A stretch of DNA of 64,000 bases from Acidiferrobacterales bacterium (lineage in GTDB: Bacteria > Pseudomonadota > Gammaproteobacteria > Acidiferrobacterales > SZUA-150). The notes beneath the pieces were generated by a model. That model was not told the origin of the DNA. It was given only the letters and a program-made list of their open reading frames with translations, and ran no database searches. Shown in pieces: positions 1,692 through 28,439 of this stretch. The position numbers were made by a program, and so were the translations under genes. Position 1 is the first letter of the stretch. Every line of letters starts with the position of its first letter. Location: the NCBI GenBank assembly GCA_947258385.1, contig CAMYII010000116.1, forward strand, positions 3,984 through 67,983, read 5' to 3'.

Positions 1692-1712
1692 GCGGGTCCG
1701 CGATCTAATCCG

Positions 1713-12506: not shown

Positions 12507-13541
12507 ATGAGGAACCATCACAACAATGCCTTACCCCTTACCGCGGCGGCCCTGCCGCTACTCACACACGCCCACCGGCATGTTGCCCGACTCATGTCGC
12601 TGGTCCTATGCGGACTCGTGCTCGGGCTGACGTCGCCCGGGAATGCCGCCCATGCGGGAGAACTGTCCGTCACCGTGTTGGGCAGTGGCGGCCCGATGGC
12701 GCTGGTCGACCGGGCCTCGGCCGGGTATCTGATAGATATCGACGGCGTGCCGCGGATCTTCATGGACGCCGGCGGGGGCACCCTGGTCAGATTGGGTCAG
12801 GGCCGCATATTCAATCTTGAGCGCGTGGATTTGTGGCTGCTCACCCATCTGCACATCGATCATGTCTCGGAATTCCCCGCCATCGTGAAATCCATGTATT
12901 ACCTGCGCCGGGCCTATAACGTAAGGACACCGTTGACGATCATCGGACCCGAGGCCTGGGGGAAATTTCCAAGCACCACGAAGTTCGTGGCCGATCACTT
13001 CAATGGGGCCGACGGGACCTATGCCTATCTGCATGATTTTCTGAACACCGTGTACAGCCCGGACATGAAGCTCGAGACCATCAATGTGCCTTACGACTAT
13101 GAAACGGTGCGAACGCCCGAGCTGGCTTTTGACAAAGACGGTGTGCGCGTGTCGACCATCCCGGTCATGCATGGACCGCGCGAATCGCAGACCCCCTCGG
13201 TCGCGTTCCGCGTCGACTATGACGGCAAGTCCATTACCTACTCGGGCGATTTGAATTCCGACAGCGGCAACCTGCTGACCCTGGCCATGGGCACGGATAT
13301 CCTTATTTACGATACCGCTCTGGGCCCCGCGCAGCGGTTTGATCCACCGGACCTGTTTCACTCCCTGCCCGCCGAGATCGGACAGACCGCTGAGGCGGCC
13401 GGGGTGAAAAAGCTGGTACTGTCTCACTTCATGCCGCCCTATACCGATCAAAAAATCGAGCGGATCGTCTCGCGGGTCAAGGAACACTATTCGGGAGAGG
13501 TGATCGTGGCCCACGATCTGCTTTCAATCCCCGTCCAGTAA
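12507..13541 (+). CDS. secreted MBL-fold metallo-hydrolase
   Basis: HxHxDH (THLHIDHVSE), an N-terminal hydrophobic signal (..LVLCGLVLGLTSPGNAAHA) and the SD GAGGAAGGA before ATG 12507. Confidence 0.75.
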   Translation: MRNHHNNALPLTAAALPLLTHAHRHVARLMSLVLCGLVLGLTSPGNAAHAGELSVTVLGSGGPMALVDRASAGYLIDIDGVPRIFMDAGGGTLVRLGQGRIFNLERVDLWLLTHLHIDHVSEFPAIVKSMYYLRRAYNVRTPLTIIGPEAWGKFPSTTKFVADHFNGADGTYAYLHDFLNTVYSPDMKLETINVPYDYETVRTPELAFDKDGVRVSTIPVMHGPRESQTPSVAFRVDYDGKSITYSGDLNSDSGNLLTLAMGTDILIYDTALGPAQRFDPPDLFHSLPAEIGQTAEAAGVKKLVLSHFMPPYTDQKIERIVSRVKEHYSGEVIVAHDLLSIPVQ

Positions 13542-13939: not shown

Positions 13940-14833
13940 ATGTGGGAGGAGCTGAACAGTGACGTCAATGAAGACACCGAAAAATTCCTGATATCGCAAC
14001 AAAGACTCGAAGAATCGTACGCGCGATGCGCGAGCGCGGAGCTCTATCGCGAGATTGACCGCCCAAATGTCAGTTTGAATGGCGAGGCGCTTCAACGGCT
14101 GCTGGCCGGGCATGCCTCGCTGATCGCCTACGCGCATCTTTTGTTCGCCGACACGCACCGGTTTTTCCCGGATCCGCGACAGGTATTACTGCTGACGGAC
14201 GCCAACGCCTGTGTCCTTGACCTCTACTCACCGTCCAGAATCCTTGAGGCCGCCAGCTCCCGATGCGGGCTCTGCGTGGGGGTATCACTGGGTGAAAGCA
14301 GCTGTGGCACCAACGCCATTGCGCTGGCGCTGCGCCATCGCGAAGTTGCCGTCCTGCAAGGACAGCAGCATTTCTGTCGCCTGTTCCACGATTGTTGTAC
14401 GGTCGCCGCCCCGGTGCTGTCGCTGCAGGGGCGCCCCATCGCCTGTGTCGGTATCGGTTATCCCTATAACTCGCCGCTGGCGGAGAAGCCCGCCCTCATC
14501 CGATGCCTCGCCCAGAAGCTGGGGCACTTTGCCGATGCGGACATACCCTGCCCCAGCGCGGCACGTGCGTATGGTGAGTCCAGCGAAAAGGACGGAAACT
14601 ACTCCGGGGTAGCATTGACCTCGCGCCAGCGTCAGGTACTGCTCTCCTTCGCCAAGGGCTTGAGCTACAAGCAGATCGCGAGAAAACTGGGCATCAGCTC
14701 GACCAAGACCGTGGAGGAGCATCTGGATGCCGTGCGCAAGAAGCTGGGCGTCGAGTGCCGCCGGGAATGCATCCAACGGGCGACCGAGCTTGGGCTGTTA
14801 ACCGGCGGCTCAAACCACGTACCATCCCACTGA
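13940..14833 (+). CDS. LuxR/FixJ-type HTH regulator with an AcoR-like GAF sensory domain
   Basis: C-terminal LuxR HTH (LTSRQRQVLLSFAKGLSYKQIARKLGISSTKTVEEHL). The N-terminal block ..SCGTNAIALAL.. is as in AcoR-type GAF domains. AGGAGG lies before the ATG. Confidence 0.75.
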   Translation: MWEELNSDVNEDTEKFLISQQRLEESYARCASAELYREIDRPNVSLNGEALQRLLAGHASLIAYAHLLFADTHRFFPDPRQVLLLTDANACVLDLYSPSRILEAASSRCGLCVGVSLGESSCGTNAIALALRHREVAVLQGQQHFCRLFHDCCTVAAPVLSLQGRPIACVGIGYPYNSPLAEKPALIRCLAQKLGHFADADIPCPSAARAYGESSEKDGNYSGVALTSRQRQVLLSFAKGLSYKQIARKLGISSTKTVEEHLDAVRKKLGVECRRECIQRATELGLLTGGSNHVPSH

Positions 14834-14842
14834 ATACGTCTA

Positions 14843-14876
14843 CCCGCAGGGGCAATGTATTAATCGCCCCTGCGGG
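14843..14876. terminator. bidirectional hairpin between convergent genes
   Basis: A perfect 11-bp stem CCCGCAGGGGC/GCCCCTGCGGG with a 12-nt AT-rich loop. It lies between the luxR-like stop (14833) and the cytochrome stop (14904). Confidence 0.6.
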
Positions 14877-14903
14877 GGAACGATGCCGCTGGCGGCGCTT
14901 TCG

Positions 14904-16025
14904 TTAGGGCGCCGGCAGGCACTTGGCCTGGTATGCCGCCCGGATGTCCTTCTGGAGTTGCAGCATATCCGCCCACGGACCGTACTTGTGCTGCGCGGCC
15001 GTAAACACTTGCGGGTAGCTGGTATCCGGTTCGGCCGTGCTGCACGCCGCAATGTAGTCCATGTAATCCGATCTTGGGAAATAAATCGCGTAGCCGGCGT
15101 CGACCCGTTTCTTCATCCAGTTGGGCACGTCATCCGGCCCCACGCCCGACCAGTCGGACTCATGGTTGACAAAGACGGGTCGTTCCTCGGAGATAACATA
15201 AGACATTACATCCCAGGCATCCTCGTCACTCAACAGTGATTCCGGATTGGTGGCATCGGCACGTCCGTAGGGCATATTGCCTTTGACAAAGCGCACGCCC
15301 GTGCGCAGGCGATACATGCCGGCACCGTTATTGAAGGTGTCCGGTCCCCAGAGCGCCGGGAAGATAAAGGCCTGCGTATCCGGGTTCCACACGCCTTCAC
15401 CGTTATTGCCGTGGCAGGGCAGGCACTGTTTTTCGTAGAGCTGCCGGCCGCGCACCGGGTCGGCGGCGCGATCCATGTCGGGCAGGGCCTTGACGAAGCC
15501 CGTTCCCTCGACCAGCCTCCAGTCGTCGACCTGCATGCCGGTGACCAGCCAGTCAAAATAGGCAATGATGGATTGCATCTCGTAGCTGTTTTCCGGCAAC
15601 TGGCGGGAATCGATCGAGTTCATCGAACGCTGCATGCAACCGTTGATGCGCACCGGGACATTGCGGTACTCATTGGTGCGGCTGGAGAAGATGCCGGGAT
15701 CGGCATACTTCAAGGACACCACCGACCAGGGCCCCCCGTACGCAGCGGTCCCGTCATCCAGATGGCAGTTGGTGCAGGCCAGCTTGTTGCCGGTAATCGG
15801 CATCGCGCTCTCCGCCCCCAGATACTTGTAGGTTTCGGTCAGCAGCAGCTTGCCGTAACGGATCATGTCGCCTGCGGGCGTATTGGGAATGTCGGCCTCA
15901 TCGGGTGCAATCCAGGTGCCTGCAAACCCATCCTCCGGCGGCGGGGGGGGTTCCGGTTTTTTCGCCTGTGCCGTTACGGCCGTCACCAGTATTAAAACAA
16001 ATAAAGTAATGACATATCTGTTCAT
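14904..16025 (-). CDS. TsdA-like dihaem cytochrome c with a C-terminal extension
   Basis: Signal peptide MNRYVITLFVLILVTAVTAQA. Two CxxCH motifs (CTNCH, CLPCH). RINGC lies about 40 residues after haem 1. The block PALWGPDTFNNGAGM resembles thiosulfate dehydrogenase TsdA. The start is set at ATG 16025. Confidence 0.7.
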   Translation of the reverse strand: MNRYVITLFVLILVTAVTAQAKKPEPPPPPEDGFAGTWIAPDEADIPNTPAGDMIRYGKLLLTETYKYLGAESAMPITGNKLACTNCHLDDGTAAYGGPWSVVSLKYADPGIFSSRTNEYRNVPVRINGCMQRSMNSIDSRQLPENSYEMQSIIAYFDWLVTGMQVDDWRLVEGTGFVKALPDMDRAADPVRGRQLYEKQCLPCHGNNGEGVWNPDTQAFIFPALWGPDTFNNGAGMYRLRTGVRFVKGNMPYGRADATNPESLLSDEDAWDVMSYVISEERPVFVNHESDWSGVGPDDVPNWMKKRVDAGYAIYFPRSDYMDYIAACSTAEPDTSYPQVFTAAQHKYGPWADMLQLQKDIRAAYQAKCLPAP

Positions 16026-16064
16026 GGCTAAAATCCTTTTTGAGGAAAGCAACGTACCCATCGT

Positions 16065-18044
16065 TTATTTCTCACCGCGACCCCTGTGACCGCGTGCGCG
16101 CCAGGTGGTGGAGGCCATGACATAGGGCTCCGCCATGCCGGTATTCAACCAGGCATCCAGTAAGTTGACACCTTCGTCGGCGAGAAAAGCGTTGCTCCGG
16201 GTGTTAGCGAGATACAGGAACTGGATGTATTCCCAACTCGTGGGTTGATAGAGCAGCGCGATGTCAGCGCGCACGGCACCGGCCGGCGGATCGAGCCTGA
16301 CCCGATCCCAATAGTTATAGCGCCCACCGGGCCCGGGATCGCCGTACTGGCTCGCCGGCACCGGCAACGCATTGCGCCGCCTGGCCTCGTCATAGTCCAT
16401 GCCGTATGGCGGAATGCGGTTGTCCTTGGCCAGGTAGTTGTTCAGCACGAAGTGGAAAGACTCCTCGTAGCTGCCCGGTTCCTCATCGGCCAGTTGCTCT
16501 AAGGTGACCGCCACCTCACCGCTCACCCGGTCAAAGCTCACCGGGAGCTCGCCGGGCAGCCCGAATCCCAATAACTGCACGGCCCACTCCTGGGTCATGG
16601 CACCGTGGGCCTCGTAGATCCTGTTGTTGGGATCGTGCAGATCCAGAATGGTGTTTACCGTCCTGAACTCGCCATTGATTCTTACCATCAGAGCGCCATA
16701 AGCACCGTCCTCTCGAATCAGCGCGCCGTCCTCGTCATACCATTTCATGTTCAGCCACATGCGACGGCCTTCGGGGTACCCCGAGATCAGCTTATGACCC
16801 GTGAGGTTCGTGACCTTGAGGGTTTTGCCGTTGACTTTGATGGTGGCGGCCCACGTGAGATTGCGCTTGGCGCGCTCGATGCCGTCGACGATGGCCGCGT
16901 GCTGCCAGTCCTCCAAGCCGCCGCCCAGCCTGAGCTTGTCCTGCGCATCCAGGTATTGAATCGCGACCGGCGTCCAGTAGTTGCCGCCGGTCAGATCGTG
17001 CGAGGGCATGTCCTTGCGCAGCTTCGGCTGATTGTGAATGCGGCTGCTGGCCTCGCCGACGACGGGCGACAAATGGCAGGTCTGGCAGCTGAAATAACGC
17101 GGCGTGCCGTCCTCGTAGTCGCCGCGCTCCCCGGCCAGCAGGGCCTGCTCATAGGCGGCCTTGATTGCGCCCTTTTGCAGATCCTCGGGCAAGGATTTGT
17201 ATTTCGACACCCGCGTCTGGGATAACAGGCCGGCCTTGTACTCGCTATAGGTCCGTTCCACGATCCCGTATTGATACGGGAGATTATTGAACGCGGCCTT
17301 GGTCTCCAGCGGAGCGCCCGGGATGCCGCTAAACGTACCGGCCGCAAGCGGGATCTGTGCGCCGTTGTTATGCGCAAGATCACCGACCGCCGGATTCGAG
17401 ACATCGTGACAGGTGCCGCAAAGATCCACCGAACGGTGATAGTTGGACTGCAAGGAGGGATGCTTGGCCACCGCGTCACTGAAGGGTCCCAGTTTGTCCA
17501 GGCCCGGCCACACGACATATTGTCCCGCGCCGTAATGACCGATCGCGGGGTCGCCTTCGTCATTGGCAATAAACGGCGGGTTCTGCACGCCGAGGTGTTC
17601 GGACTCGTCCGGATTGGTCAACCGGTGACAGAAATCGCATTCGATACCGTCATGATCCCGGTCGGTCAGCGCGGAGCCATCGGTCGGTACCGAACGACCC
17701 GCGAGCCAACCGGACGCCGAATGGCAACGGATACACAGATCCCCCGAGCCATCGATATCCTGCTCGGCAACGGCAAGCGTGGCCCAGAACAGCGGATCAC
17801 GGCCGGCCAAAGACATCATGCTTCCCTGCCAGTTGTGACCCGGCTCGACGTCAGTATTGTAACCGCCGTGACAGAACAGGCACTGCGCAGCCGGGTCCAG
17901 GCTATTGAAGTCGCCGGGCTGAGGCACCGGACTGGCGACCTGCCCTGGCTGTGTACCAGGCATCCGGATTTCATTGGGAACGGTATCGGCGGCGTAAGCA
18001 ACACCGCACACCAAGGTAAGCACGAACGAGAGTACGAGTTTCAT
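16065..18044 (-). CDS. periplasmic pentahaem c-type cytochrome (659 aa)
   Basis: Signal peptide MKLVLSFVLTLVCGVAYA. Five CxxCH motifs (CLFCH, CIRCH, CDFCH, CGTCH, CQTCH). It lies 39 nt upstream of the TsdA-like gene on the same strand. Confidence 0.8.
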   Translation of the reverse strand: MKLVLSFVLTLVCGVAYAADTVPNEIRMPGTQPGQVASPVPQPGDFNSLDPAAQCLFCHGGYNTDVEPGHNWQGSMMSLAGRDPLFWATLAVAEQDIDGSGDLCIRCHSASGWLAGRSVPTDGSALTDRDHDGIECDFCHRLTNPDESEHLGVQNPPFIANDEGDPAIGHYGAGQYVVWPGLDKLGPFSDAVAKHPSLQSNYHRSVDLCGTCHDVSNPAVGDLAHNNGAQIPLAAGTFSGIPGAPLETKAAFNNLPYQYGIVERTYSEYKAGLLSQTRVSKYKSLPEDLQKGAIKAAYEQALLAGERGDYEDGTPRYFSCQTCHLSPVVGEASSRIHNQPKLRKDMPSHDLTGGNYWTPVAIQYLDAQDKLRLGGGLEDWQHAAIVDGIERAKRNLTWAATIKVNGKTLKVTNLTGHKLISGYPEGRRMWLNMKWYDEDGALIREDGAYGALMVRINGEFRTVNTILDLHDPNNRIYEAHGAMTQEWAVQLLGFGLPGELPVSFDRVSGEVAVTLEQLADEEPGSYEESFHFVLNNYLAKDNRIPPYGMDYDEARRRNALPVPASQYGDPGPGGRYNYWDRVRLDPPAGAVRADIALLYQPTSWEYIQFLYLANTRSNAFLADEGVNLLDAWLNTGMAEPYVMASTTWRARGHRGRGEK

Positions 18045-18466
18045 CGAAGCTGTCTCCTTCCTGGAATTCCACTTTGTTCACGCGATCGACTCGCATGAAC
18101 ACTGCTCAACCGTGAACGCCACAGGCGCTTAAGGGAAAGTAAAGTGAGTTGCGCCCTTTAATGACTTTAACGAATGACATAGGAATACACCGCAAGACGA
18201 TGTCTGTAAATGATATAAATCAATCGCTGCGCGCAATCACAACATTAACAACGTTGCGATGTTATATGTGTGTCCGCGGACCCCGGTAAAGAACGGGGTA
18301 CCTCTGATATCGATACCTATGTCTTTGGCGGGTTGCCGTTCACAGGCAGCCATGATTGACTGTAAACCACACCGCGTTTGTGCCTTTGACATCCAATCCT
18401 TTGGATGGCCCACAAGGCGTTTGTGTTGACGCGACATTGCACCCTAAGCTCCAGGGAGGTTGAGCC

Positions 18467-20311
18467 ATGTTGACCCATCGAGCATCGACTGAAACTAATC
18501 CTTGTCGGTTTTTTTCCACCATTGCTTTTAAACTGTCTCTGTCGCACGAAGGCCGTTTAGTGACTAGCGTCGCCCTAGTGCGCAGCCTGATGTACCTTGT
18601 CGTTCTCGCCGCCATCACATTCGCGGTTAGTGCCAATGCGAATCAAGGTGCAACCGGTAATGATGATGATGACGATGATCAGGATAAAGAAATATCGCTG
18701 ACCCTGATCCAGATCGGTGACCTGCACGGTCATATGGTCCCGCGTCCGAATCTGCGAATCGACAGTGTAGATGGTGTCAAGGAAGGAGGGCTTGCCCGCA
18801 TCGCCGGCAAGATCAAACAGATTCGCGCAAGCGATCCGGATGCCTTGCTGTTCAACGTCGGCGACACCATCCAGGGCGGCGCCGAGGCGCTCCATACCAG
18901 TGGCCAGGCCATGGTCGATGTGGTGGACACCTTCGGCGTCGACGGCTTCGCGCCCGGCAACTGGGAATATCTCTACGGCGCGGAGCGCTTTGTCGAACTT
19001 TTTGGCAGCGGACGCTGGGGCTCGGTGGCGGCCAATCTTTATTACGAAGACACTGGCGAACGGGTGCTACCGCCGTATCTGATTAAGGAGGTCAAGGGTA
19101 TCAAGGTCGGTTACATGGGATTGACGACTGACCGTGGCCTGCCGGCGATTCCCAACGCTACCGAGGGTCTGGTCTTCACCGGCGACGCGGCGGAAATACC
19201 GGTGCTCATCGACAAGCTGCGCAACGAAGAGAGGGTCGATGTGGTGATCCTGTTGTCCGAGTTCGGGCTGGCCAAGAATGTCCTGCTGGCGGAACGCTAC
19301 CCGGGTATGGATGTGATCCTATCCTCCGACATGCACGAGATCACGCCGCGGGCGGTCGTCACCTCGACGGGCACCCTGGTCTCCGAGGTGGGACAGGACG
19401 GCACCCGCATGGGCAAAGTGGTGTTGCGCCTGGTCGACAAACAGATCGTGAAGCGCAAGTACAAATTCATAAACATAGACGCTACGATCGAATCGGACCC
19501 CGAGACCGCCAAGCTGGTACGCAAGATCCGCAAGGCCTTTGTTACAGGCTCTGGGTTCCAGTCGCATATCAATCCGATCAGCGGCGCCATCCTGAATACG
19601 CCCATTAATACCGTAGTAGGGATCGCGGAGGTCGGCCTGCATCGCTCCAACTTCACCGACCACCCGCTGCCCGGTGTGATCGAGGGCACCTCGCATGATT
19701 TTCTGACCGACGCCTTCCGCGATCAGGGCATGTCGGACTTCGCCTCCATCCGCGGCTTCCGTTACGGCACGCACGTGCGGCCCGGGCCAATCAGACTGGA
19801 GGATCTCTACCATTACCTGCCCACCGGCGCACAGATCGCCCGCGGCACCATCCCGGGTCTGCAATTGAAAACTGTCATGGAGAACACCATCAACGGCTCG
19901 CTCAACAAGGATCCGTTCAAGTGGGGCGGCGGCTGGGTGTTCGGCTTCAGCGGTATCACCTTCGATCTGGACCTGACCGCACCCAGAGGCTATCGCGCGC
20001 AGAACATCATGATCAAACGCCATGATACGGGTCTATGGGAACCGCTCGATGTGGAGGCCTTTTACACGGTAGCCGGCTTTTTCTTCGACGACGATCCCAA
20101 CCGTGTCGGCGCCTTTCGTAACGCCAAAGACATCACCGTGCTGAATGCGGAGGACGGTGGGCTCCTGGATGGGACCGAGGTGGTCGTCGATCACCTCGAG
20201 ACCCACACCGCGAATCCGCAGACGGGACGCATTCGTTTATTGCAGCCGTTACCGCCACCGGTCTACGGCAACCCCGAGATTCAACCGCTGTTGGGCGCCA
20301 CCGCGGACTGA
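18467..20311 (+). CDS. SoxB/5'-nucleotidase-like metallophosphoesterase, paralogue 1
   Basis: Metallophosphatase motifs IGDLHGH and VGDTIQGG, a variant GNWEY, and a 5'-nucleotidase-type C-domain. GGGAGG lies 7 nt before ATG 18467. The signal-like segment (LMYLVVLAAITFAVSANA) starts only at residue ~41, so the true start may be GTG 18578 or ATG 18590. Confidence 0.75.
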   Translation: MLTHRASTETNPCRFFSTIAFKLSLSHEGRLVTSVALVRSLMYLVVLAAITFAVSANANQGATGNDDDDDDQDKEISLTLIQIGDLHGHMVPRPNLRIDSVDGVKEGGLARIAGKIKQIRASDPDALLFNVGDTIQGGAEALHTSGQAMVDVVDTFGVDGFAPGNWEYLYGAERFVELFGSGRWGSVAANLYYEDTGERVLPPYLIKEVKGIKVGYMGLTTDRGLPAIPNATEGLVFTGDAAEIPVLIDKLRNEERVDVVILLSEFGLAKNVLLAERYPGMDVILSSDMHEITPRAVVTSTGTLVSEVGQDGTRMGKVVLRLVDKQIVKRKYKFINIDATIESDPETAKLVRKIRKAFVTGSGFQSHINPISGAILNTPINTVVGIAEVGLHRSNFTDHPLPGVIEGTSHDFLTDAFRDQGMSDFASIRGFRYGTHVRPGPIRLEDLYHYLPTGAQIARGTIPGLQLKTVMENTINGSLNKDPFKWGGGWVFGFSGITFDLDLTAPRGYRAQNIMIKRHDTGLWEPLDVEAFYTVAGFFFDDDPNRVGAFRNAKDITVLNAEDGGLLDGTEVVVDHLETHTANPQTGRIRLLQPLPPPVYGNPEIQPLLGATAD

Positions 20312-20451
20312 GACGGGCATCACGGGCGGCTCACGAGGCGGCACAAGCGACGCCGATCGTGAGCCGACCCGAGCCAGGGAGCTCATGCGACCAGGCAAGG
20401 TTGAGCTGATAACACGTCCGATAAAGCCGTATCAGCCAAGGAGGTTCAGAC

Positions 20452-22197
20452 ATGACGGTCATCCTACCCATCACAACGCGCCTCACTTCGCTCGTATTGG
20501 CCGCATTGGCCTGCTTTGCCATCCCCAGTGCCACGGCCACTGAAAGTAACGATACGACAACGTTAGTCATGATGCTGATTGGCGATACCCACGGCCACAT
20601 GCTGCCGCGGTCCAATCTGCGACGGGATTCTCTGGATGGCGTTAAGGAAGGGGGCTATGCCCGGTTGATGACCAAGGTCAAAGAGATTCGCCAACACGAT
20701 CCGGAGGCGCTGCTGTTCATGTCCGGCGATACGCTGCAGGGTGGGGTCGAGGCGCTTTACACAAAGGGTCAGAGCGCCATCGATGTGTTCGACACCTTCG
20801 GCATCAACGCCTTCGCCCCGGGCAACTGGGACTTTCTTTATGGGCGCGAGCGCTTTGTCGAAGTCTTCGGCGCTGACCGCTGGGGCATTGTCTGCGCGAA
20901 CCTGTACTACGAGGAAGGCTTCGAGAACCCCGAGACGCGACAGCGGGTAGTGCCCCCCTATCGCATACTGGACGTCAAAGGCATCAAGATCGGGGTCATC
21001 GGCATGACCGCCGAGCGCGGCATTCTGGCGGTACCCGGCGCCAATGATGGCTTCATTCTGACCAAGGCCCAGGACGAGTTGCCCGCCTTGATCGCCGAGC
21101 TGCGTCCCCAGGTCGATGTGCTGATGCTGCTCTCGGAGCTCGGACTGGCCAAGAACTCATTGCTCGCCGAGCGCTTTCCGGACTTCGATCTGGTGTTCTC
21201 TTCGGACATGCATGAAGAGGTACCGAACCCCATCATCATCGGCGATAAAGGCATCATCGTCACCGAGATGGGTCACGACGGGACCGGCATGATCAAAATC
21301 AGTCTTCGCCTTGACGACAAACAGATCGTGGACAAGCACTACAGCTGGCTCGACATTAATAATCTAATCATGCCGGATCCCGATGTCGTGCAGCTCATAA
21401 AACGCATCAGCGCGGAATTCGATAAAGGCGCCGCCTTCAAGACCCATATTAATCCGCTCAGCGGCTATGTACTGACAACCCCGGCCAATACCGTGGTCGG
21501 CCGTAACGCCACCCGCCTGTACCGCTACGATTTCACCGACGACCCGCGCCCCGGGGTCATCGAAGGGGCCTCGCATGACTTTCTGACTGATGCCTTCCGC
21601 GAGCGGGCGGCGGCAGACTTCGCCATGATCGTGGGTTTCCGTTACGGCACCCACTTGCGTCAGGGGCCGATCCGCTTGCGCGACCTGTACCACTATCTGC
21701 CGGCCGGCGCCCAGATCGCCAAGGGCACGGTCAGCGGTCAGCAGATCAAGAATGTGCTGGAAAACAACACCGACGGTGCGCTCAACAAGGACCCCTTCAA
21801 ATGGACCGGCGGCTGGCTGTTCGGCTACAGCGGCGTCCAGTTCGATGTGGACTTGACGGTCCCCAAAGGCAGCCGCGCGCAGAATGTGATGATCAAACAC
21901 CAGGCGAGCGGGATGTGGAAATCCCTGGAGCTTGGGGCGAGCTACACCGTGGCAGGGTTCTGGTTCCCGCTGCGCCCGAACCGCATCGGTGTCTTTCCCA
22001 TCGCCGATCCGTCCACCGTCATCCGCCTGACGCTCCCGGACGGCTCACCCAAGGATGCCACGGAGGTGGTCGTTGATTATCTCCAGACCACGACCGCCAA
22101 TCCGGACATGGGCCGCATCCGCTTACTGACACCGTTGCCGCCACCGGTATTCGGCAACCCCGAGGTCCAGCCCCTGCGGGGCGCCACGCTGGAGTGA
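20452..22197 (+). CDS. SoxB/5'-nucleotidase-like metallophosphoesterase, paralogue 2
   Basis: AAGGAGG SD and a Sec signal (..LAALACFAIPSATA). The motifs IGDTHGH, SGDTLQGG and GNWDF are collinear with paralogue 1 over the full length. Confidence 0.8.
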   Translation: MTVILPITTRLTSLVLAALACFAIPSATATESNDTTTLVMMLIGDTHGHMLPRSNLRRDSLDGVKEGGYARLMTKVKEIRQHDPEALLFMSGDTLQGGVEALYTKGQSAIDVFDTFGINAFAPGNWDFLYGRERFVEVFGADRWGIVCANLYYEEGFENPETRQRVVPPYRILDVKGIKIGVIGMTAERGILAVPGANDGFILTKAQDELPALIAELRPQVDVLMLLSELGLAKNSLLAERFPDFDLVFSSDMHEEVPNPIIIGDKGIIVTEMGHDGTGMIKISLRLDDKQIVDKHYSWLDINNLIMPDPDVVQLIKRISAEFDKGAAFKTHINPLSGYVLTTPANTVVGRNATRLYRYDFTDDPRPGVIEGASHDFLTDAFRERAAADFAMIVGFRYGTHLRQGPIRLRDLYHYLPAGAQIAKGTVSGQQIKNVLENNTDGALNKDPFKWTGGWLFGYSGVQFDVDLTVPKGSRAQNVMIKHQASGMWKSLELGASYTVAGFWFPLRPNRIGVFPIADPSTVIRLTLPDGSPKDATEVVVDYLQTTTANPDMGRIRLLTPLPPPVFGNPEVQPLRGATLE

Positions 22198-22269
22198 CAC
22201 GCGGCGACGCGCAATGTTTAAGCCGGCCCGCCTTAAGGCGGTAGACCCGTTTCCACGGAGGAGAGCACC

Positions 22270-25200
22270 ATGACACGTCTTAGCAGAGCCTTCATCACCG
22301 CACTCGGCCTCGTTGTCCTGCTCATGTCAACGCCGCCGCTGACCCTGGCCAACGTTAGCGAGCGCCCCACCTGCTCGCCTGAGCTGTTGCAGTCGCTGGA
22401 CATGTTCAACTGCATCGCGAGACAGGAGCTGCCGCCGATCGAGTTCGGGCCACCCGACACCTTTCTCGATCGCCGCGCGCGCGAGGCGTTTCCACAAAAC
22501 TGGACTCAGCTCGGATTCGATCAGCGCCACAACCCGGTGTTTCCCGTACCGGACACGGCCCCGCCATTCCTGCGCTTCGGCACCTTCTGGGCCGCAAACA
22601 TTACTGGACTGGACTTTCTACGCCTGGGCCGGGCCCTTGACACCATCGGTAACCCGGAGGCCTGGGGCTCCAAGACCGCCCAGTACCTGGGAAACGTCAT
22701 GGGGGTATCGGCCGCCCAGGGCATCGTCTATGTCCAGCTCGGCCGCCACGAGATCTGGGCCCTGGACGGCGCCAGCGGCAGAGCAATCTGGCAGGCCGAT
22801 CTCACAACATCGGCCGGTATGGGTGAGACCCTGGTCGAGGAGATCAACGGCCGGCTGATGGTGTTCGTGCCCGTCGGCGATGCCGCCTTCACCGTGCAGA
22901 ATGCCATCGACTTCGCCAACGGCCAAGCCCACGACCGCGGCGCCAATTTCTCAGGCGTGTATGCCTTTGACGGCGTCACCGGCGAGCGGCGCTGGCGCTT
23001 CGCCACCAAGGGCGCGTCACGCCCGACGCCCGTCTATCGCAACGGCAAGCTTTACCTGGCGACTGGCGGCGGTGAGTTCTTCGTGCTCAACGCAGAAGAC
23101 GGCAAACAACTGGGCAGCTTCACCAACCCCGGCGAGGGCTTTCCCGGCCTGGCCTCGCTGAACTGGTTCGAGACCGCGGACGACCGGATGTTTCTGATCT
23201 ACGGGACCATCCGCCCGCGGAGAATCCTGGCGGTCGATGCGACGGATCCGAGTGCACCGGTGTTGGGCTGGCAATACACGCCGGCCAACGCCACCGCCAA
23301 TGCCCCGGGTGATACCCCGGTCGCGGTCGACCCGGAGTTGGGCATGGTGTTCACCACCGTGTTCAGCAGTGTCTCAGGGCAATTTACAACCAATGTGCTG
23401 GCGCTGGACGCGACCACCGGCGAGGTACGCTGGAATGATTTCGCCGGCGGCATCGACAGCCCGCCCGGTTACAAGGGCAGCGTGCCCATGGTACACGCGG
23501 GTGGGCTATACGTGGGCAACACCAGCAACGGCAGGTATCGCGCCTATGACGCGCTCACCGGCACCTTGCGCTGGGAGGCCGATCTGAGCGAGGCGGACGA
23601 CCCGCCGGGGCTGATCCACCGGCCGCGGGCCGCCGCCGTATTCCACGACGGGAAGCTGATCGTCGCCGAGGGCCGCGATATCCACACCTTCGACCCCGAG
23701 ACCGGCATTGAGCTCAATCGCTTCGAGACGCCCGGCACCTTCGCCGTCTGGGGCATCAACCAGCCGGTCATCATCGGCCAGCTGATGATCCTGAGCTCCA
23801 TCTCCGGTTGGGTGTTCGCGGCACCGGTCGATGTCATCACCAACTTTCCCGGCTTCGAGGGCGGCACAGCGCTCCCGCTCCCGGGTGGGGATACGCCGCC
23901 ACCCCCGCAGCTACCCGAGTTTTTCAATCCGCTGGCCCTGCCCACTCGCTCGGAGGCCAAGCAGTTCCCGAGCACCTGGCTGGCCTACGCCGGCGGCCAG
24001 GACCATAACGGTGTGGCGAACCAGGGTCCGAGCGGCGTCGCCTGGCAGACCGCGCTCAATAGTGCCCTATCGCTGGACGCGCCGCCGCTGGACGAGTTCA
24101 TCTACGGCACAGAGATCGCCACCCACATGACCCACCTGGCGTTCGGGGTCGGCACCGGCGTGTCGCCGGCCAACGGTATTCTCTATGTCGGCAGCGACCG
24201 TTATACGATCAATGCCCTGAACGCGTTGACCGGGGAGCCGATCTGGCGCTTCCGCACCATTAACGCCAACTTCGGTCAGCCGCTGGTGACAGCGGATACG
24301 GTCATCGTCAGTGGCGGTGATCCCTGGATGAACCTCGGCAATACGGGAAGGTTCCGGTCCAACTCGCCGGCCACGGTCATCGGCGACAGCTTCCCCACGG
24401 TGCATGGGCTCGACCCCAAAACCGGGCTCGAGAAGTGGACTTTCTACAGCGACGGCGGCACCAGCGCCATGACCCCGCTGTATCATGACGGCAAGCTGTA
24501 CTGGGTCAACGGCGAGGCCAAGGTCTGGGCCATCAATGCCGAGACCGGCGAACCGGTGTCTCCCTTCATGGACCCGGACGGGCTGCCGGTCCTGTCGCTG
24601 GGCGGCTTCAACGCCATCTCCTCGGCCAACGTATACAACGAGCCGGGCGGACCCGATCTCATGGTCGTCGGCACCGCCATGCCCAATCGGATCTGGGCCA
24701 TCGATCTGGCCACGGCCGAGGTGGCCTGGAGCTACGACCTAGCGGGAGTGAATACGTATGTGACGGGATTTGCCACCGTGTCGCCGACGTTGGAGCAGAA
24801 TCGCGGGCTGGTGATCAGCACGGTGCTGACCGATGCGGATCCGTTGACGAACACCGTGACCGTGCTCGCGTTCGCGCTCGACGGCAAGACCGGCGCGCCG
24901 GTCTGGACCCAAGCCCTGGGCACGGGGTCTATCCCGACCGGCTTCACCGGTCCCGTGCCGCTGATCGCAAAGAGCAGCGTTTACCTGCACAACCCGCTGA
25001 CTCAAACCATGACCGCGCTAAATGCGCTAACCGGTGCCGTAAAATGGCAGATGCCGATCTCCACACCGGAGGGCAAGTTCAGTTGGGGTCCGGGCGTGGT
25101 CGTGGGCAACAAACTGATCGTGCCCGCCGGGCCCGATCTGTACACCTTCGACGCCAAGACCGGTGCCGTACTCGCCCAGCGGCGGATCGGTGGGTCGTTT

Positions 25201-25320
25201 ACCTATAACAACCCGACGGTGGCCGGCAAAACACTTTATATCGGCAATTCCTGGGGCTGGGTGTCAGCCATCCCGCTTGGCACGGAAACCAACGACGACG
25301 ACGACGAGAAAGACGATTGA
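22270..25320 (+). CDS. secreted 1016-aa protein of PQQ/BamB-type beta-propeller repeats (probable double propeller)
   Basis: GGAGGAG SD and the signal peptide MTRLSRAFITALGLVVLLMSTPPLTLA. At least 13 repeats of the type (A/N)xD..(T/S)Gxx.W occur (IWALDGASGRAIWQ, YAFDGVTGERRWRF, LALDATTGEVRWND, YDALTGTLRWEA, LNALTGEPIWRF, LDPKTGLEKWTF, FALDGKTGAPVWTQ, LNALTGAVKWQM ...). Confidence 0.75.
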   Translation: MTRLSRAFITALGLVVLLMSTPPLTLANVSERPTCSPELLQSLDMFNCIARQELPPIEFGPPDTFLDRRAREAFPQNWTQLGFDQRHNPVFPVPDTAPPFLRFGTFWAANITGLDFLRLGRALDTIGNPEAWGSKTAQYLGNVMGVSAAQGIVYVQLGRHEIWALDGASGRAIWQADLTTSAGMGETLVEEINGRLMVFVPVGDAAFTVQNAIDFANGQAHDRGANFSGVYAFDGVTGERRWRFATKGASRPTPVYRNGKLYLATGGGEFFVLNAEDGKQLGSFTNPGEGFPGLASLNWFETADDRMFLIYGTIRPRRILAVDATDPSAPVLGWQYTPANATANAPGDTPVAVDPELGMVFTTVFSSVSGQFTTNVLALDATTGEVRWNDFAGGIDSPPGYKGSVPMVHAGGLYVGNTSNGRYRAYDALTGTLRWEADLSEADDPPGLIHRPRAAAVFHDGKLIVAEGRDIHTFDPETGIELNRFETPGTFAVWGINQPVIIGQLMILSSISGWVFAAPVDVITNFPGFEGGTALPLPGGDTPPPPQLPEFFNPLALPTRSEAKQFPSTWLAYAGGQDHNGVANQGPSGVAWQTALNSALSLDAPPLDEFIYGTEIATHMTHLAFGVGTGVSPANGILYVGSDRYTINALNALTGEPIWRFRTINANFGQPLVTADTVIVSGGDPWMNLGNTGRFRSNSPATVIGDSFPTVHGLDPKTGLEKWTFYSDGGTSAMTPLYHDGKLYWVNGEAKVWAINAETGEPVSPFMDPDGLPVLSLGGFNAISSANVYNEPGGPDLMVVGTAMPNRIWAIDLATAEVAWSYDLAGVNTYVTGFATVSPTLEQNRGLVISTVLTDADPLTNTVTVLAFALDGKTGAPVWTQALGTGSIPTGFTGPVPLIAKSSVYLHNPLTQTMTALNALTGAVKWQMPISTPEGKFSWGPGVVVGNKLIVPAGPDLYTFDAKTGAVLAQRRIGGSFTYNNPTVAGKTLYIGNSWGWVSAIPLGTETNDDDDEKDD

Positions 25321-26810: not shown

Positions 26811-28112
26811 TTACGAGAACATGTCAGCGGTGATGCTCGCGTACCAGCCCGAGGCATAGTCGGCCTCCTTCTTGCGAAACTCATCGCTTGCATCCATGGG
26901 GCTGAGCCCGCCCGATCCCTTGACCTTCCTGATGCCCTCCTCGGTCACATTGTAGACGGCCGCCACCGAGATCCCGTAGTCGGGGGCGACCAGACTGTAG
27001 CAGGTGTTGACATAGGAAGGATCCGGCATCGCCGTACCGCTCAGACTTGATACGATCGCCGCCGCGCAGACCTTGCCCTGGCTGTTGGCGGCATACCCGG
27101 ATTTCGGCATCTGCCCGGCGATCGAGGCATCGCCGATGACATACACGTCCTTGTGCACGCTGGACTCGAACGTGCGCTGATTCACCGGACACCAGCCATC
27201 GGCGTTCACCAACCCCGCCTTGTGCGCGAGCTCACCCGCTTTTTGCGGCGGAATGAGATTGACCACATCACCGGTATGCGCCTCCCCGAATTCGGCATAA
27301 AGCGTTCGCTTGGCCATATCGATACGGTCAATCTTGCCGCCGGCGCTCGCCTTCACCCACTCGATCATCCCCGGATAACGCTTCTCCCATCCCTGCATGA
27401 ATAATCCCTGCTTGGAGAACTTGTCCTTGGCATCGAGGATCAAAACCTTGGACTTCGGTTTATTCTGGGTCAGATAATGCGCGATCAGACTCGCGCGTTC
27501 GTAGGGCCCGGGGGGACAGCGGAATGGATTGCCGGGCGGTACGATGATCACCACCCCGCCATCCTGCATCGCTTCCAGCTGCTTGCGCAGCGTACGGGTC
27601 TGCGGCCCGCCCTTCCAGGCGTGCGGAACCGTCTCACAGGCCGCCTCGTCATAACCCTCAATGGCGTCCCAGCGGAAATCGATCCCGGGAGACACCACCA
27701 GGCGGTCATACTGCATGGTCTTGCTGCCTTTAAGCGTAAGCTTTTTGGCCGCGGCATCGATATCGGTCACGGCCCCACGGATCACGTTGATCCCGTAGTT
27801 ATCGCCTAACTTGTCATAGCCGTGGGAGATCGACTCAAAGCTGCGCCCACCGACCAGAAACAGGTTGCTGAACGGACAGGTCACGAACCGCGCATCACGC
27901 TCGATCAACGTGACCTCAACGGCGGGATCGAACTTACGAATGTATTTCGCGCACGTCGCGCCGCCGAACCCGCCGCCGACCACGATGACGCGCCCCCCTG
28001 CTTTGGCCTTCTTCTGGCAGCCGCCGAGCGGCCAGGCCAGCGCCCCCATCGCCGACAGCGCACCCGCGGTACCCGCCAGCCTAATGAACCCTCTGCGTGA
28101 TAACTTGCTCAT
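26811..28112 (-). CDS. fccB: flavocytochrome c sulfide dehydrogenase, flavoprotein subunit
   Basis: Tat motif SRRGFIRL and FAD fold VIVVGGGFGGATCA. It lies immediately downstream of a small cytochrome c gene (fccAB order). Confidence 0.88.
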   Translation of the reverse strand: MSKLSRRGFIRLAGTAGALSAMGALAWPLGGCQKKAKAGGRVIVVGGGFGGATCAKYIRKFDPAVEVTLIERDARFVTCPFSNLFLVGGRSFESISHGYDKLGDNYGINVIRGAVTDIDAAAKKLTLKGSKTMQYDRLVVSPGIDFRWDAIEGYDEAACETVPHAWKGGPQTRTLRKQLEAMQDGGVVIIVPPGNPFRCPPGPYERASLIAHYLTQNKPKSKVLILDAKDKFSKQGLFMQGWEKRYPGMIEWVKASAGGKIDRIDMAKRTLYAEFGEAHTGDVVNLIPPQKAGELAHKAGLVNADGWCPVNQRTFESSVHKDVYVIGDASIAGQMPKSGYAANSQGKVCAAAIVSSLSGTAMPDPSYVNTCYSLVAPDYGISVAAVYNVTEEGIRKVKGSGGLSPMDASDEFRKKEADYASGWYASITADMFS

Positions 28113-28124
28113 TGCGGCCTCCTC

Positions 28125-28439
28125 CTACATGCTCGCAAAATACTCTGCGATCAGTCTGATTTCCTCGTCGGTATAGCCCTTGATATGGCGTCCCATCACG
28201 GTTGACGGAATCTCGCCCGAGCGGAAGCCCTTCAGGATCTGCTCCAGGAACTCCGCGGACTTGCCGGAGATACTCGGGATCGATCCGGGGCTCCTGCCAT
28301 CCGTTCCATGACAACCGGCGCATGATGTGCCCAGCATCGCACCGCGCGTCACCTCGGCTGCCTGAAGCGGGAAGGATTGCGATATCAAGATGGCCATCGC
28401 GGCCACAACCAGGCCTGGTATTCGATATGATCTACACAT
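28125..28439 (-). CDS. fccA: monohaem cytochrome c subunit of flavocytochrome c
   Basis: 104 aa with a signal peptide and a single CAGCH. It lies 12 nt upstream of fccB. Confidence 0.8.

What the first reader, a model, noticed from the sequence alone, without database searches (positions are those of the whole stretch)
13940..25320. Periplasmic cytochrome / SoxB-like hydrolase / giant propeller cluster with no characterised counterpart (candidate thiosulfate-polythionate module)
The genes are arranged divergently around a 420-bp lower-GC intergenic region (18045-18466). Leftward lie a pentahaem cytochrome c and a TsdA-like dihaem cytochrome, 39 nt apart. Rightward lie two tandem paralogous SoxB/5'-nucleotidase-like metallophosphoesterases and a 1016-aa protein made of at least 13 PQQ/BamB-type propeller repeats. 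A LuxR-HTH regulator with an AcoR-type GAF domain closes the left edge.

All five structural proteins carry Sec-type signal sequences. Three known facts point to sulfur chemistry. TsdA enzymes interconvert thiosulfate and tetrathionate. SoxB hydrolyses carrier-bound thiosulfonate. Tetrathionate hydrolases are PQQ-like propellers. In addition, fccAB lies 1.5 kb downstream. A reduced-sulfur role is therefore plausible but unproven.

No soxXYZA, doxDA or separate tetH-type partners are present, so this is not a canonical Sox or S4I arrangement. By eye the cluster is a few percent lower in GC than its flanks.
Basis: partly seen in the sequence, partly recalled or inferred. Interest (0 to 1): 0.8.

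Follow-up and report, generated by a model that had tools for sequence, protein, structure and literature searches.

The report
Thiosulfate-tetrathionate module with fused double TetH
This is a real, conserved periplasmic gene cluster of sulfur-oxidising bacteria: a thiosulfate dehydrogenase, its five-haem partner, two SoxB-like hydrolases and a previously undescribed fused double tetrathionate hydrolase, which gives testable candidates for how neutral-pH bacteria break down polythionates.

Summary

- **Giant propeller.** It is not an orphan. It is a tandem fusion of two tetrathionate-hydrolase (TetH) modules (PDB 6L8A, E 5e-48; model TM 0.90).
  - Module 1 keeps the catalytic Asp (D348, 80 of 80 homologues).
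  - Module 2 never has an acidic residue at that position.
- **Hydrolases.** The two paralogues are closest to SoxB but score far below its curated cut-off. Two metal-ligand histidines are replaced by Glu and Asp.
- **Dihaem protein.** It is a TsdA with all active-site residues intact.
- **Conservation.** The same five-gene divergent layout recurs in a metagenome contig, and the same gene set, differently arranged, in a Sulfurirhabdus and a groundwater gammaproteobacterial MAG.
  - The double TetH plus SoxB-like pair recurs in Thiobacillus, Thiogranum, Acidiferrobacteraceae and "Nitrospiraceae" MAGs.
  - fccAB and the lower-GC claim do not hold up as part of it.
- **Precedents.** "No characterised counterpart" is overstated. 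TsdA plus TetH is the S4-intermediate pathway, and TsdA plus SoxB-like hydrolases was shown genetically in Erythrobacter flavus.

Verdict: a new variant of a known kind, of moderate to high interest.

The parts
11093..11482 (+). BlaI/CopY-type (Penicillinase_R-like) repressor, 129 aa from the internal Met
   Evidence: tblastn finds 51-58% identity to the genes called Penicillinase_R in L001, L003, L010, L012 and L020. Pfam was not run on this ORF itself.
11475..12365 (+). BlaR1-type membrane metalloprotease/sensor (Peptidase_M56), overlapping the BlaI stop codon
   Evidence: Pfam PF05569 at E 4e-25. Orthologues of 37-50% identity sit in the same position in five related loci.
12507..13541 (+). 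Secreted MBL-fold hydrolase (Lactamase_B_2), mature size about 32 kDa
   Evidence: Pfam PF12706. The best solved relatives are an MBL-fold arylsulfatase, 8gyg (E 8e-10), and PNGM-1. Orthologues of 60-72% identity lie in L001, L003, L010, L012 and L020.
13940..14833 (+). Regulator with a GerE/LuxR HTH (aa 225-280) and an N-terminal domain (aa 15-198) that matches the N-terminal part of the DhaR model
   Evidence: Pfam GerE at E 2e-13. NCBIfam DhaR N-terminal region at E 2e-20, below cut-off. Orthologues of 34-48% identity occur in six related loci.
14904..16061 (-). TsdA-type dihaem thiosulfate dehydrogenase/tetrathionate reductase. The start may instead be Met13 at 16025.
   Evidence: PDB TsdA 4wqc at E 3e-34 and TsdBA 5lo9 at E 1e-34. 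Haem 1 is C96xxCH with Cys142, equivalent to Av Cys96. R128, R138 and S146 are conserved. Haem 2 is C213xxCH with N262-M263, as in C. jejuni N254/M255.
16065..18044 (-). 659-aa pentahaem cytochrome c with a beta-rich C-terminal domain; candidate redox partner of TsdA
   Evidence: It has five CxxCH motifs and no Pfam, NCBIfam or PDB sequence family. The weak best fold match is the T. tepidum pentahaem c552, 5ze8 (E 1.6e-3). The gene order 5haem then TsdA is conserved in L016, L017, L025, L027 and L028.
18045..18466 (.). Divergent intergenic control region, 49.5% GC
   Evidence: No consensus sigma-70 promoter was found in it. An SD-like GGGAGG lies 7 nt before the ATG at 18467.
18467..20311 (+). 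SoxB-like dimetal hydrolase 1 (Metallophos + 5_nucleotid_C)
   Evidence: TIGR04486 SoxB scores 190 bits against a cut-off of 550. The best PDB hit is SoxB 2wdc at E 3e-24. Family-invariant residues are D85, H87, D133, N165, W166, E265, D288 and H290.
20452..22197 (+). SoxB-like dimetal hydrolase 2, a paralogue 56% identical to hydrolase 1
   Evidence: TIGR04486 scores 164 bits against a cut-off of 550. It carries the same motifs and is 76% identical to its counterpart in L025.
22270..25320 (+). Fused double tetrathionate-hydrolase homologue (two eight-bladed propellers)
   Evidence: PDB 6l8a/7cqy at E 5e-48. The AF2 model has pLDDT 90.1 and pTM 0.89. Foldseek to 6l8a gives TM 0.90 and rmsd 2.1 A.
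22489..23841 (+). TetH module 1 (aa 74-524), with the catalytic Asp348 at codon 23311-23313
   Evidence: It aligns end to end with Af-Tth residues 33-467. D348 aligns with Asp325, which reads GIGD in 6l8a and GIGN in the D325N entry 7cqy. D348 is invariant in 80 of 80 homologues.
23962..25287 (+). TetH module 2 (aa 565-1006), lacking the catalytic acid (Thr836)
   Evidence: It is 29% identical to module 1 at E 8e-43. Position 836 is A, T, S, G or P, and never D or E, in 80 homologues.
26811..28439 (-). fccB (26811-28112) and monohaem fccA (28125-28439): neighbours, not part of the conserved unit
   Evidence: Pfam FCSD domains and Cytochrom_C. They are absent from all related loci.

Best explanation
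This is a periplasmic S4-intermediate-type module for thiosulfate and polythionate oxidation in neutrophilic sulfur oxidisers.

1. **Oxidation step (inferred from family).** TsdA couples two thiosulfate molecules to tetrathionate at its Cys-ligated haem. It passes the electrons to the co-transcribed pentahaem cytochrome, which here takes the place of TsdB or HiPIP.
2. **First hydrolysis (inferred from the conserved fold and catalytic Asp).** The fused double TetH hydrolyses tetrathionate, and probably higher polythionates, at the module-1 site (Asp348). The products are sulfate plus disulfane monosulfonate. Module 2 lacks the acid. It probably acts as the built-in second subunit of what is a homodimer in Acidithiobacillus.
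3. **Second hydrolysis (inferred from SoxB chemistry and E. flavus genetics).** The two SoxB-like hydrolases work without a SoxYZ carrier. They cleave terminal sulfonate groups from the sulfane-sulfonate products, trithionate or tetrathionate. This yields sulfate plus thiosulfate or zero-valent sulfur. The thiosulfate re-enters at TsdA.
4. **Accessory parts (conserved association shown, roles inferred).** The secreted MBL hydrolase, the LuxR-type regulator and the BlaI/BlaR pair are conserved neighbours of the hydrolase genes.
For: **Family assignments**
- TsdA matches solved TsdA structures at E 3e-34 and keeps Cys142, R128, R138, S146 and Met263.
- Module 1 aligns end to end with Af-Tth, and the structural match has TM 0.90.
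- The catalytic Asp is invariant in 80 of 80 homologues. An acidic residue occupies that position in 15 of 16 single-module TetH-like representatives.
- SoxB is the best-scoring curated family for both hydrolases and the best-scoring solved structure for hydrolase 1. The catalytic His of the nucleotidase GNHE motif is replaced by Trp, as in SoxB.

**Co-conservation**
- L025 has the same five-gene divergent layout.
- L016 (Sulfurirhabdus) and L017 carry TsdA, the pentahaem protein, a SoxB-like gene and the double TetH, in a different arrangement.
- A SoxB-like gene lies within 10 kb of the double TetH in 14 of 15 loci with adequate flanks.
- The 5haem then TsdA pair recurs without the double TetH in L027 and L028.

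**Hosts and precedents**
- The carriers that bear a genus or family name are mostly sulfur oxidisers.
- E. flavus needs TsdA plus a SoxB-like protein to convert thiosulfate via tetrathionate to sulfur (PMC7608252, PMC9426585).
- TetH is a homodimer with Asp325 essential for activity (PMC10859504).
Against: - No expression or enzyme data exist for any member of these three clades.
- All characterised TetH enzymes are acidophilic and work only at acid pH, with Asp325 proposed as a general acid (PMC10859504). Activity at neutral periplasmic pH is therefore unproven.
- The TsdA has the Asn-Met haem-2 pocket of C. jejuni TsdA (PMC6879331). From my own recollection of the literature, not checked here, that enzyme serves tetrathionate respiration in vivo, so the direction of catalysis is not settled.
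- The cytochrome pair accompanies the double TetH in only 3-4 of about 15 loci, so the hydrolase core can work without it.
- The altered metal ligands (E265, D288) could mean chemistry different from SoxB.
- Some related loci add HupE/UreJ-type and unknown genes whose role is not explained.
Confidence: 0.65

Rival explanations
1. This is a tetrathionate-respiration module. TsdA runs in reverse as a tetrathionate reductase, fed by the pentahaem cytochrome. The hydrolases process other polythionates into reducible or assimilable species.
For: TsdA enzymes are bidirectional (PMC6879331). This one has the Asn262-Met263 haem-2 pocket of C. jejuni TsdA rather than the Lys-Met of A. vinosum. From my own recollection, C. 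jejuni uses that enzyme for tetrathionate respiration. The best, though weak, fold match for the pentahaem protein is the low-potential pentahaem c552 of T. tepidum (PMC11976967).
Against: The named hosts are mostly sulfur-oxidising lithotrophs. A hydrolase that destroys tetrathionate encoded beside a tetrathionate reductase would compete for the acceptor. fccAB, a sulfide oxidation system, lies nearby. The E. flavus homologous system runs in the oxidative direction (PMC7608252).
Confidence: 0.12
2. The conserved hydrolase core (double propeller, SoxB-like pair, MBL, BlaI/BlaR) acts on a substrate that is not a polythionate. Candidates are organic sulfate or phosphate esters, nucleotides or a cell-envelope compound. 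On this view the cytochromes are only occasional neighbours.
For: The cytochrome pair is missing from most double-TetH loci. The hydrolases fail the SoxB cut-off and have changed metal ligands. The best solved relative of the MBL protein is an arylsulfatase. BlaI/BlaR-type regulation is typical of envelope or metal stress.
Against: The catalytic Asp of TetH is strictly conserved. The nucleotidase catalytic His is lost. SoxB-like genes also follow the 5haem-TsdA pair where no double TetH is present (L028). The hosts that bear a genus or family name are mostly sulfur oxidisers.
Confidence: 0.13
3. The double propeller is a non-catalytic scaffold or binding protein, BamB-like, that organises the SoxB-like enzymes or binds sulfur globules. 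All the hydrolysis is done by the SoxB-like proteins, as proposed for E. flavus.
For: Module 2 has lost the catalytic acid. BamB is the next-best fold match. E. flavus is reported to manage with TsdA plus SoxB-like proteins, and no TetH is mentioned (PMC7608252).
Against: Module 1 keeps Asp348 in 80 of 80 sequences, within a conserved G-D-T/V motif. The fold match to TetH (TM 0.90, E 4e-38) is far better than to BamB (TM about 0.7, E 1e-18).
Confidence: 0.07

Closest known systems
S4-intermediate (Kelly-Trudinger) pathway of Acidithiobacillus: thiosulfate oxidation to tetrathionate (DoxDA/TQO or TsdA) plus tetrathionate hydrolase TetH/Af-Tth (PDB 6L8A)
   Same: The logic is the same: a thiosulfate-to-tetrathionate oxidase is encoded next to a TetH-fold hydrolase. 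The eight-bladed propeller fold matches (TM 0.90), and the catalytic Asp325 equivalent is conserved.
   Different: TetH is fused here into a two-module protein, and only one module keeps the Asp. Sequence identity to Af-Tth is about 30%. The hosts are neutrophiles, whereas all characterised TTHs are acidophilic (PMC10859504). There is no DoxDA. Two SoxB-like hydrolases and a pentahaem cytochrome are added.
Erythrobacter flavus 21-3 TsdA/SoxB thiosulfate-to-sulfur pathway (cluster D0Y83_01340-01450)
   Same: Both have a thiosulfate-related cluster with TsdA, a cytochrome partner, several SoxB-like proteins of the 5'-nucleotidase family and an MBL-fold protein. Neither has SoxYZ (PMC7608252).
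   Different: The E. flavus partner is a TsdB. Its MBL protein is described as a persulfide dioxygenase-rhodanese (SdoA), not a Lactamase_B_2 hydrolase, and no TetH-like propeller is reported. I could not fetch the E. flavus sequences, so orthology of the SoxB-like proteins is untested.
Canonical SoxB thiosulfohydrolase (TIGR04486; Thermus thermophilus 2WDC)
   Same: Both have the two-domain Metallophos plus 5_nucleotid_C architecture. SoxB is the best-scoring curated family and, for hydrolase 1, the best solved structure. Trp replaces the nucleotidase catalytic His in motif III.
   Different: Scores of 190 and 164 bits fall far below the cut-off of 550. Motif IV His is replaced by Glu265 and the first motif V His by Asp288. 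Motif III keeps the Asn of nucleotidases. The N-terminus has no twin-arginine motif. No soxYZ or soxAX lies in the 64 kb.
TsdA/TsdB of Allochromatium vinosum and Marichromatium purpuratum (4WQ7, 5LO9) and C. jejuni TsdA
   Same: It is a dihaem protein with a His/Cys active-site haem. The two substrate-binding Arg residues and the Met ligand of haem 2 are conserved.
   Different: It has an extra C-terminal tail of about 80 aa and an Asn-Met (C. jejuni type) haem-2 pocket. Its conserved neighbour is a 659-aa pentahaem protein instead of dihaem TsdB.
Pentahaem cytochrome (PHC) family: T. tepidum c552 (5ZE8), Geobacter ExtKL/Gsu2801
   Same: Both have five c-type haems followed by a beta-rich domain. 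5ZE8 is the only PDB fold match with high Foldseek probability (PMC11976967).
   Different: The match is weak (E 1.6e-3, TM 0.2-0.3), and the haem region of the model is poorly predicted (pLDDT below 50). There is no sequence-level similarity. Membership is therefore not established.

Membership tests
Tetrathionate hydrolase (TetH/TTH) | Eight-bladed PQQ_2-type beta-propeller fold like Af-Tth | tested here: met
   phmmer against 6l8a gives E 5e-48, and module 1 aligns over Af-Tth residues 33-467. The AF2 model compared with 6l8a gives TM 0.90 and rmsd 2.1 A.
Tetrathionate hydrolase (TetH/TTH) | Catalytic Asp equivalent to Af-Tth Asp325 | tested here: met
   This is met in module 1 only. D348 aligns with Asp325 and is invariant in 80 of 80 homologues. 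Module 2 has Thr836, and the family has A/T/S/G/P at that position.
Tetrathionate hydrolase (TetH/TTH) | Homodimeric single-propeller subunit of about 50 kDa | tested here: not met
   The protein is a 1016-aa fusion of two modules that are 29% identical.
Tetrathionate hydrolase (TetH/TTH) | Hydrolysis of tetrathionate to thiosulfate, sulfur and sulfate, with an acid pH optimum | not testable with these tools
   This needs an enzyme assay.
SoxB thiosulfohydrolase (TIGR04486) | Score above the curated equivalog cut-off | tested here: not met
   The scores are 190.1 and 164.1 bits against a cut-off of 550.
SoxB thiosulfohydrolase (TIGR04486) | SoxB-type dimetal ligand set (the His residues in LSHNG and SGHTHD) | tested here: not met
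   In the alignment to 2wdc, E265 replaces the motif IV His and D288 replaces the first motif V His. Both residues are invariant across 20 family members.
SoxB thiosulfohydrolase (TIGR04486) | Genomic and functional coupling to the SoxYZ carrier and SoxAX | tested here: not met
   The window has no ORF with a SoxY GGCGG C-terminus and no further c-type cytochromes. The rest of the genome is unknown.
UshA-type 5'-nucleotidase | GNHE motif with the catalytic His | tested here: not met
   The motif is PGNW(D/E), and the Trp is invariant. UshA models score only 58-60 bits against a cut-off of 600.
TsdA thiosulfate dehydrogenase | Two CxxCH haems, with the Cys distal ligand of haem 1 (Av Cys96) | tested here: met
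   C96xxCH and C213xxCH are present. Cys142 aligns with Av Cys96 (PMC6879331).
TsdA thiosulfate dehydrogenase | Conserved substrate-binding Arg pair and the Met ligand of haem 2 | tested here: met
   R128 and R138 align with Av R82 and R92 (R109/R119 in precursor numbering). M263 aligns with Av M209. The preceding residue is Asn, as in C. jejuni N254.
TsdA thiosulfate dehydrogenase | Thiosulfate/tetrathionate interconversion activity and its direction | not testable with these tools
   This needs enzyme assays or electrochemistry.
PQQ-dependent alcohol dehydrogenase | Membership of the methanol/ethanol PQQ dehydrogenase family, with its PQQ/Ca ligands | tested here: not met
   TIGR03075 scores 69 bits against a cut-off of 480. 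PDB sequence hits are TetH, then designed propellers, a kinase propeller domain, a PQQ-repeat protein (3hxj) and BamB, with no quinoprotein dehydrogenase. Individual PQQ ligands were not examined.
Pentahaem cytochrome (PHC) family / T. tepidum c552 | Shared fold and haem arrangement | tested here: inconclusive
   Foldseek to 5ze8 gives E 1.6e-3 and TM 0.20/0.32, from a model whose haem region has pLDDT below 50. There is no sequence match.

The most novel reading that the evidence does not exclude
The conserved module is a complete, carrier-free periplasmic pathway for polythionate hydrolysis in neutrophilic sulfur bacteria. The SoxB-like clade with the Glu/Asp-substituted metal site, or else the roughly 32-kDa secreted MBL hydrolase, would be the trithionate hydrolase (EC 3.12.1.1). 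Its gene was still unknown in 2016 (PMC5037610), and I found no later identification in the searchable library. Thermithiobacillus tepidarius, the organism in which that activity was partly purified, carries a tandem pair of orthologues 56% identical to the window's hydrolase 1. On this reading the fused double TetH is the first neutral-pH tetrathionate hydrolase. It would be built as an intramolecular pseudo-dimer with one catalytic and one degenerate site.
Probability: 0.25. Interest if true: 0.75.

Novelty: new variant of a known kind. Interest (0 to 1): 0.58.

Why it matters
**The open question.** Thiosulfate oxidation via tetrathionate is widespread in neutral-pH environments such as mine waters, sediments and groundwater. 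The enzymes that consume tetrathionate there are unsettled. TetH has been characterised only from acidophiles (PMC10859504). Recent work states that TetH and SoxB are both proposed for this second step, and that an unidentified enzyme may exist (bioRxiv 10.64898/2025.12.01.691697).

**What this cluster adds.** Homologues of both hydrolase types are encoded side by side and are co-conserved across several lineages of sulfur oxidisers. That suggests they act in sequence rather than as alternatives. It names concrete proteins to express and assay.

**What the fused TetH offers.** One active-type and one degenerate module make a natural experiment on why TetH is dimeric.

**What the cytochrome pair offers.** The pentahaem-TsdA pair points to a new electron-accepting partner for TsdA.

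Tried and rejected
- **Exact-sequence contig look-ups.** Look-ups for the window's own double TetH, and for P0001, P0005 and P0229, returned nothing. Cluster look-ups carry no names either.
- **Pentahaem protein, sequence level.** Single-sequence and profile searches against the PDB gave only noise.
- **Pentahaem protein, fold level.** The only meaningful hit, 5ze8, rests on a poorly modelled haem region. I treat it as a lead only.
- **Plasmid collection.** It holds no double-TetH homologue. The Bosea sp. AS-1 plasmid SoxB-like locus was uninformative.
- **GC argument.** I rejected lower GC as a sign of foreign origin.
- **Second MBL gene.** The gene at 4521-5693 is not a paralogue of the cluster's MBL: 25% identity over 80 aa.
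- **Intergenic region.** The promoter scan found no consensus sigma-70 site there, and the totals matched shuffled expectation.
- **fccAB and CBS gene.** Neither is co-conserved with the cluster.
- **Thiosulfate-grown proteome.** I looked for a proteome of Sulfurirhabdus autotrophica in the supplements of PMC6397845. The protein tables are not held.
- **Pseudo-dimer test.** I could not check whether the two modules pack like the Af-Tth homodimer, because model coordinates are not exposed to the scripting tool.

Full report
**1. Observation**

- regulator, 13940-14833 (+)
- dihaem cytochrome, 14904-16061 (-)
- pentahaem cytochrome, 16065-18044 (-)
- two metallophosphoesterase/5'-nucleotidase-type proteins, 18467-20311 and 20452-22197 (+), 56% identical to each other
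- 1016-aa propeller protein, 22270-25320 (+)

These are GerE/LuxR HTH, Cytochrom_C, Metallophos plus 5_nucleotid_C, and PQQ_2. CxxCH counts are 5 and 2. The divergent spacer 18045-18466 is 49.5% GC. fccB and a monohaem fccA lie 1.5 kb downstream on the other strand.

The GC claim is weak. The cluster is 60.9% GC against 61.9% for the window, and a third of equal-sized windows are lower.

**2. The giant propeller is a fused double tetrathionate hydrolase**
- Against all PDB sequences, the only strong hits are the Acidithiobacillus ferrooxidans tetrathionate hydrolase entries 6L8A and 7CQY, at E 5e-48.
- Residues 74-524 alone align end to end with Af-Tth residues 33-467.
- The second half, residues 565-1006, is a diverged copy: 29% identical to the first, E 8e-43.
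- An AlphaFold2 model built on 31 homologues is confident (pLDDT 90.1, pTM 0.89).
- Its best structural match is again 6L8A (TM 0.90, rmsd 2.1 A, E 4e-38). BamB follows far behind at E 1e-18.
- Asp325 of Af-Tth is essential; the D325N variant is inactive (review PMC10859504). The two PDB entries differ at exactly that residue (GIGD against GIGN), which fixes the alignment column.
- Module 1 has Asp348 there, invariant in 80 of 80 full-length homologues.
- Module 2 has Thr836. Across the family that position is Ala, Thr, Ser, Gly or Pro, and never acidic.
- Single-module TetH-like representatives have Asp in 13 of 16 cases and Glu in 2.
- Af-Tth is a homodimer (PMC10859504). The fusion therefore looks like a covalent pseudo-dimer with one catalytic and one degenerate site. 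That last point is inference; I could not superpose coordinates.

**3. The hydrolases are SoxB-like but not SoxB**
- SoxB (TIGR04486) is the best curated family for both, but at 190 and 164 bits against a cut-off of 550.
- T. thermophilus SoxB is the best solved relative of hydrolase 1, at E 3e-24.
- In an alignment of 20 family members, motif I (GD-x-HG), motif II (GDT-x-QG) and His290 are invariant.
- Motif III is PGNW(D/E). It keeps the Asn of nucleotidases and has the Trp of SoxB in place of the nucleotidase catalytic His.
- The motif IV His is replaced by Glu265.
- The first motif V His is replaced by Asp288.
- This is therefore a distinct clade with a carboxylate-enriched second metal site. 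It is not a UshA-type nucleotidase and not a canonical SoxB.
- The window has no SoxY-type ORF and no SoxAX-type cytochrome.

**4. The dihaem protein is a TsdA**
- It matches A. vinosum TsdA and the M. purpuratum TsdBA fusion at E about 1e-34.
- Cys142 aligns with the active-site haem ligand, Av Cys96.
- Arg128 and Arg138 align with the substrate-binding arginines. Ser146 is conserved.
- Haem 2 has Asn262-Met263. This corresponds to Asn254/Met255 of C. jejuni TsdA rather than Lys208/Met209 of A. vinosum (PMC6879331).
- TsdA enzymes are bidirectional, so sequence alone does not settle the direction.

**5. The pentahaem protein**
- It has no Pfam, NCBIfam or PDB sequence relative.
- It nevertheless belongs to a very large family: more than 5000 hits, at 62-68% identity, even in proteins labelled TA06, Anaerolineae, Pirellulales and Phycisphaerae.
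- In the AF2 model only the C-terminal beta-rich half is well predicted.
- The only notable fold match is the T. tepidum pentahaem c552, and it is weak.
- Its gene directly precedes a TsdA-type gene in the window and in L016, L017, L025, L027 and L028.
- It does not do so in the FN3 and dockerin forms from Anaerolineae and Phycisphaerae.
- I infer that it is the TsdA electron partner in this lineage.

**6. Conservation**
- The double TetH forms a small family. About 80 clusters at 90% identity are known, all unnamed or from MAGs. Only three full-length clusters remain at 50% identity among 1.8 billion representatives.
- A genome scan found it in MAGs of Thiobacillus, Thiobacillaceae, Thiogranum, Acidiferrobacteraceae and Sulfurirhabdus. 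It also found it in MAGs labelled Nitrospiraceae, Nitrospiria, Gammaproteobacteria and Candidatus Saccharibacteria (a 2.4-kb contig), and in Alicyclobacillus sp. ALC3.
- Of 15 loci with adequate flanks, 14 have a SoxB-like gene within 10 kb, and 11 of those are close orthologues.
- L025 reproduces the complete divergent five-gene layout. L016 and L017 carry the same gene set in a different arrangement.
- A BlaI-like repressor, a BlaR/M56-like protein and a secreted MBL hydrolase recur in five loci.
- The best solved relative of the MBL protein is an MBL-fold arylsulfatase.
- The LuxR-type regulator recurs in six loci. fccAB never does.

**7. Comparison with what is known**
- TsdA plus TetH is the logic of the S4-intermediate pathway (PMC10859504).
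- TsdA, a cytochrome partner and several SoxB-like proteins, without SoxYZ, is the pathway shown genetically in Erythrobacter flavus 21-3. There SoxB is proposed to release sulfate from tetrathionate and leave zero-valent sulfur (PMC7608252, PMC9426585).
- Four things appear to be new:
  - the fused, half-degenerate TetH
  - its tight coupling to a SoxB-like clade with altered metal ligands
  - the pentahaem partner of TsdA
  - the occurrence of all of these in neutrophiles, where the enzyme for the second step of the pathway is openly debated (bioRxiv 10.64898/2025.12.01.691697)
- The gene for trithionate hydrolase was unknown in 2016 (PMC5037610), and I found no later identification in the searchable library.
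- Thermithiobacillus tepidarius, in which that activity was studied, carries a tandem pair of close orthologues of the SoxB-like genes.
- SoxB chemistry, R-S-SO3 to R-S plus sulfate, is exactly the trithionate hydrolase reaction when R is sulfonate. This is a lead, not a result.

**8. Verdict**
- The sulfur interpretation is supported.
- The claim of having no counterpart is not.
- I classify this as a new variant of a known kind of system. Confidence in the general function is about 0.65, and lower for the assignment of individual steps.

Noticed in passing
window 16065-18044 (-); L027, L028, L030, L032: The pentahaem protein belongs to a very large uncharacterised family. It has more than 5000 homologues at 62-68% identity, including proteins labelled TA06, Anaerolineae, Pirellulales and Phycisphaerae. 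Many carry extra FN3, dockerin, MG2 or IPT domains. It has no Pfam, NCBIfam or PDB family. Only the 640-665-aa forms examined pair with TsdA.
   Followed up: partly
L003 7959-9769; L001 15806-17737: In Thiogranum and in an uncultured gammaproteobacterium, a HupE/UreJ_2-type membrane protein (364-403 aa) and an unknown protein of about 238 aa sit among the SoxB-like and double-TetH genes. They may supply metal to the altered dimetal site. Neither gene is in the window.
   Followed up: no
L024 4071-13842 (Thermithiobacillus tepidarius DSM 3134): A tandem pair of SoxB-like orthologues, the first 56% identical to the window's hydrolase 1, follows a 512-aa NHL-repeat propeller and a PAS histidine kinase with a GerE response regulator. 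No TetH-type gene lies nearby. A different propeller may take the TetH role there.
   Followed up: partly
L027 4627-5469; L028 1437-2294: A PhnD-like periplasmic binding protein (Pfam Phosphonate-bd), with a signalling protein (sensor kinase or GGDEF), lies upstream of the 5haem-TsdA pair in two unrelated contigs. It may be an oxyanion sensor.
   Followed up: no
window 18467-20311 (aa 65-73) and 22270-25320 (aa 1008-1016): Poly-Asp tracts occur at the predicted mature N-terminus of SoxB-like 1 (NDDDDDDQD) and at the extreme C-terminus of the double TetH (NDDDDEKDD). Most homologues lack them, and their role is unknown.
   Followed up: no
window 18467-18590: SoxB-like 1 has about 40 residues before its hydrophobic signal-like segment. 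Only the closest homologue (P0108) shares this extension. The true start may be the GTG at 18571, although the ATG at 18467 has a good GGGAGG ribosome-binding site.
   Followed up: partly
window 504-3143 (+): A DUF444 (YeaH-like) and SpoVR-like gene pair lies at the left end of the window. It is unrelated to the finding.
   Followed up: no
window 28830-33246 (+): A MacB-type ABC transporter (ATPase plus an 844-aa FtsX/MacB_PCD permease) is followed by a protein with CrtC-like lipocalin domains. This lies just beyond fccAB and is not co-conserved with the cluster.
   Followed up: no
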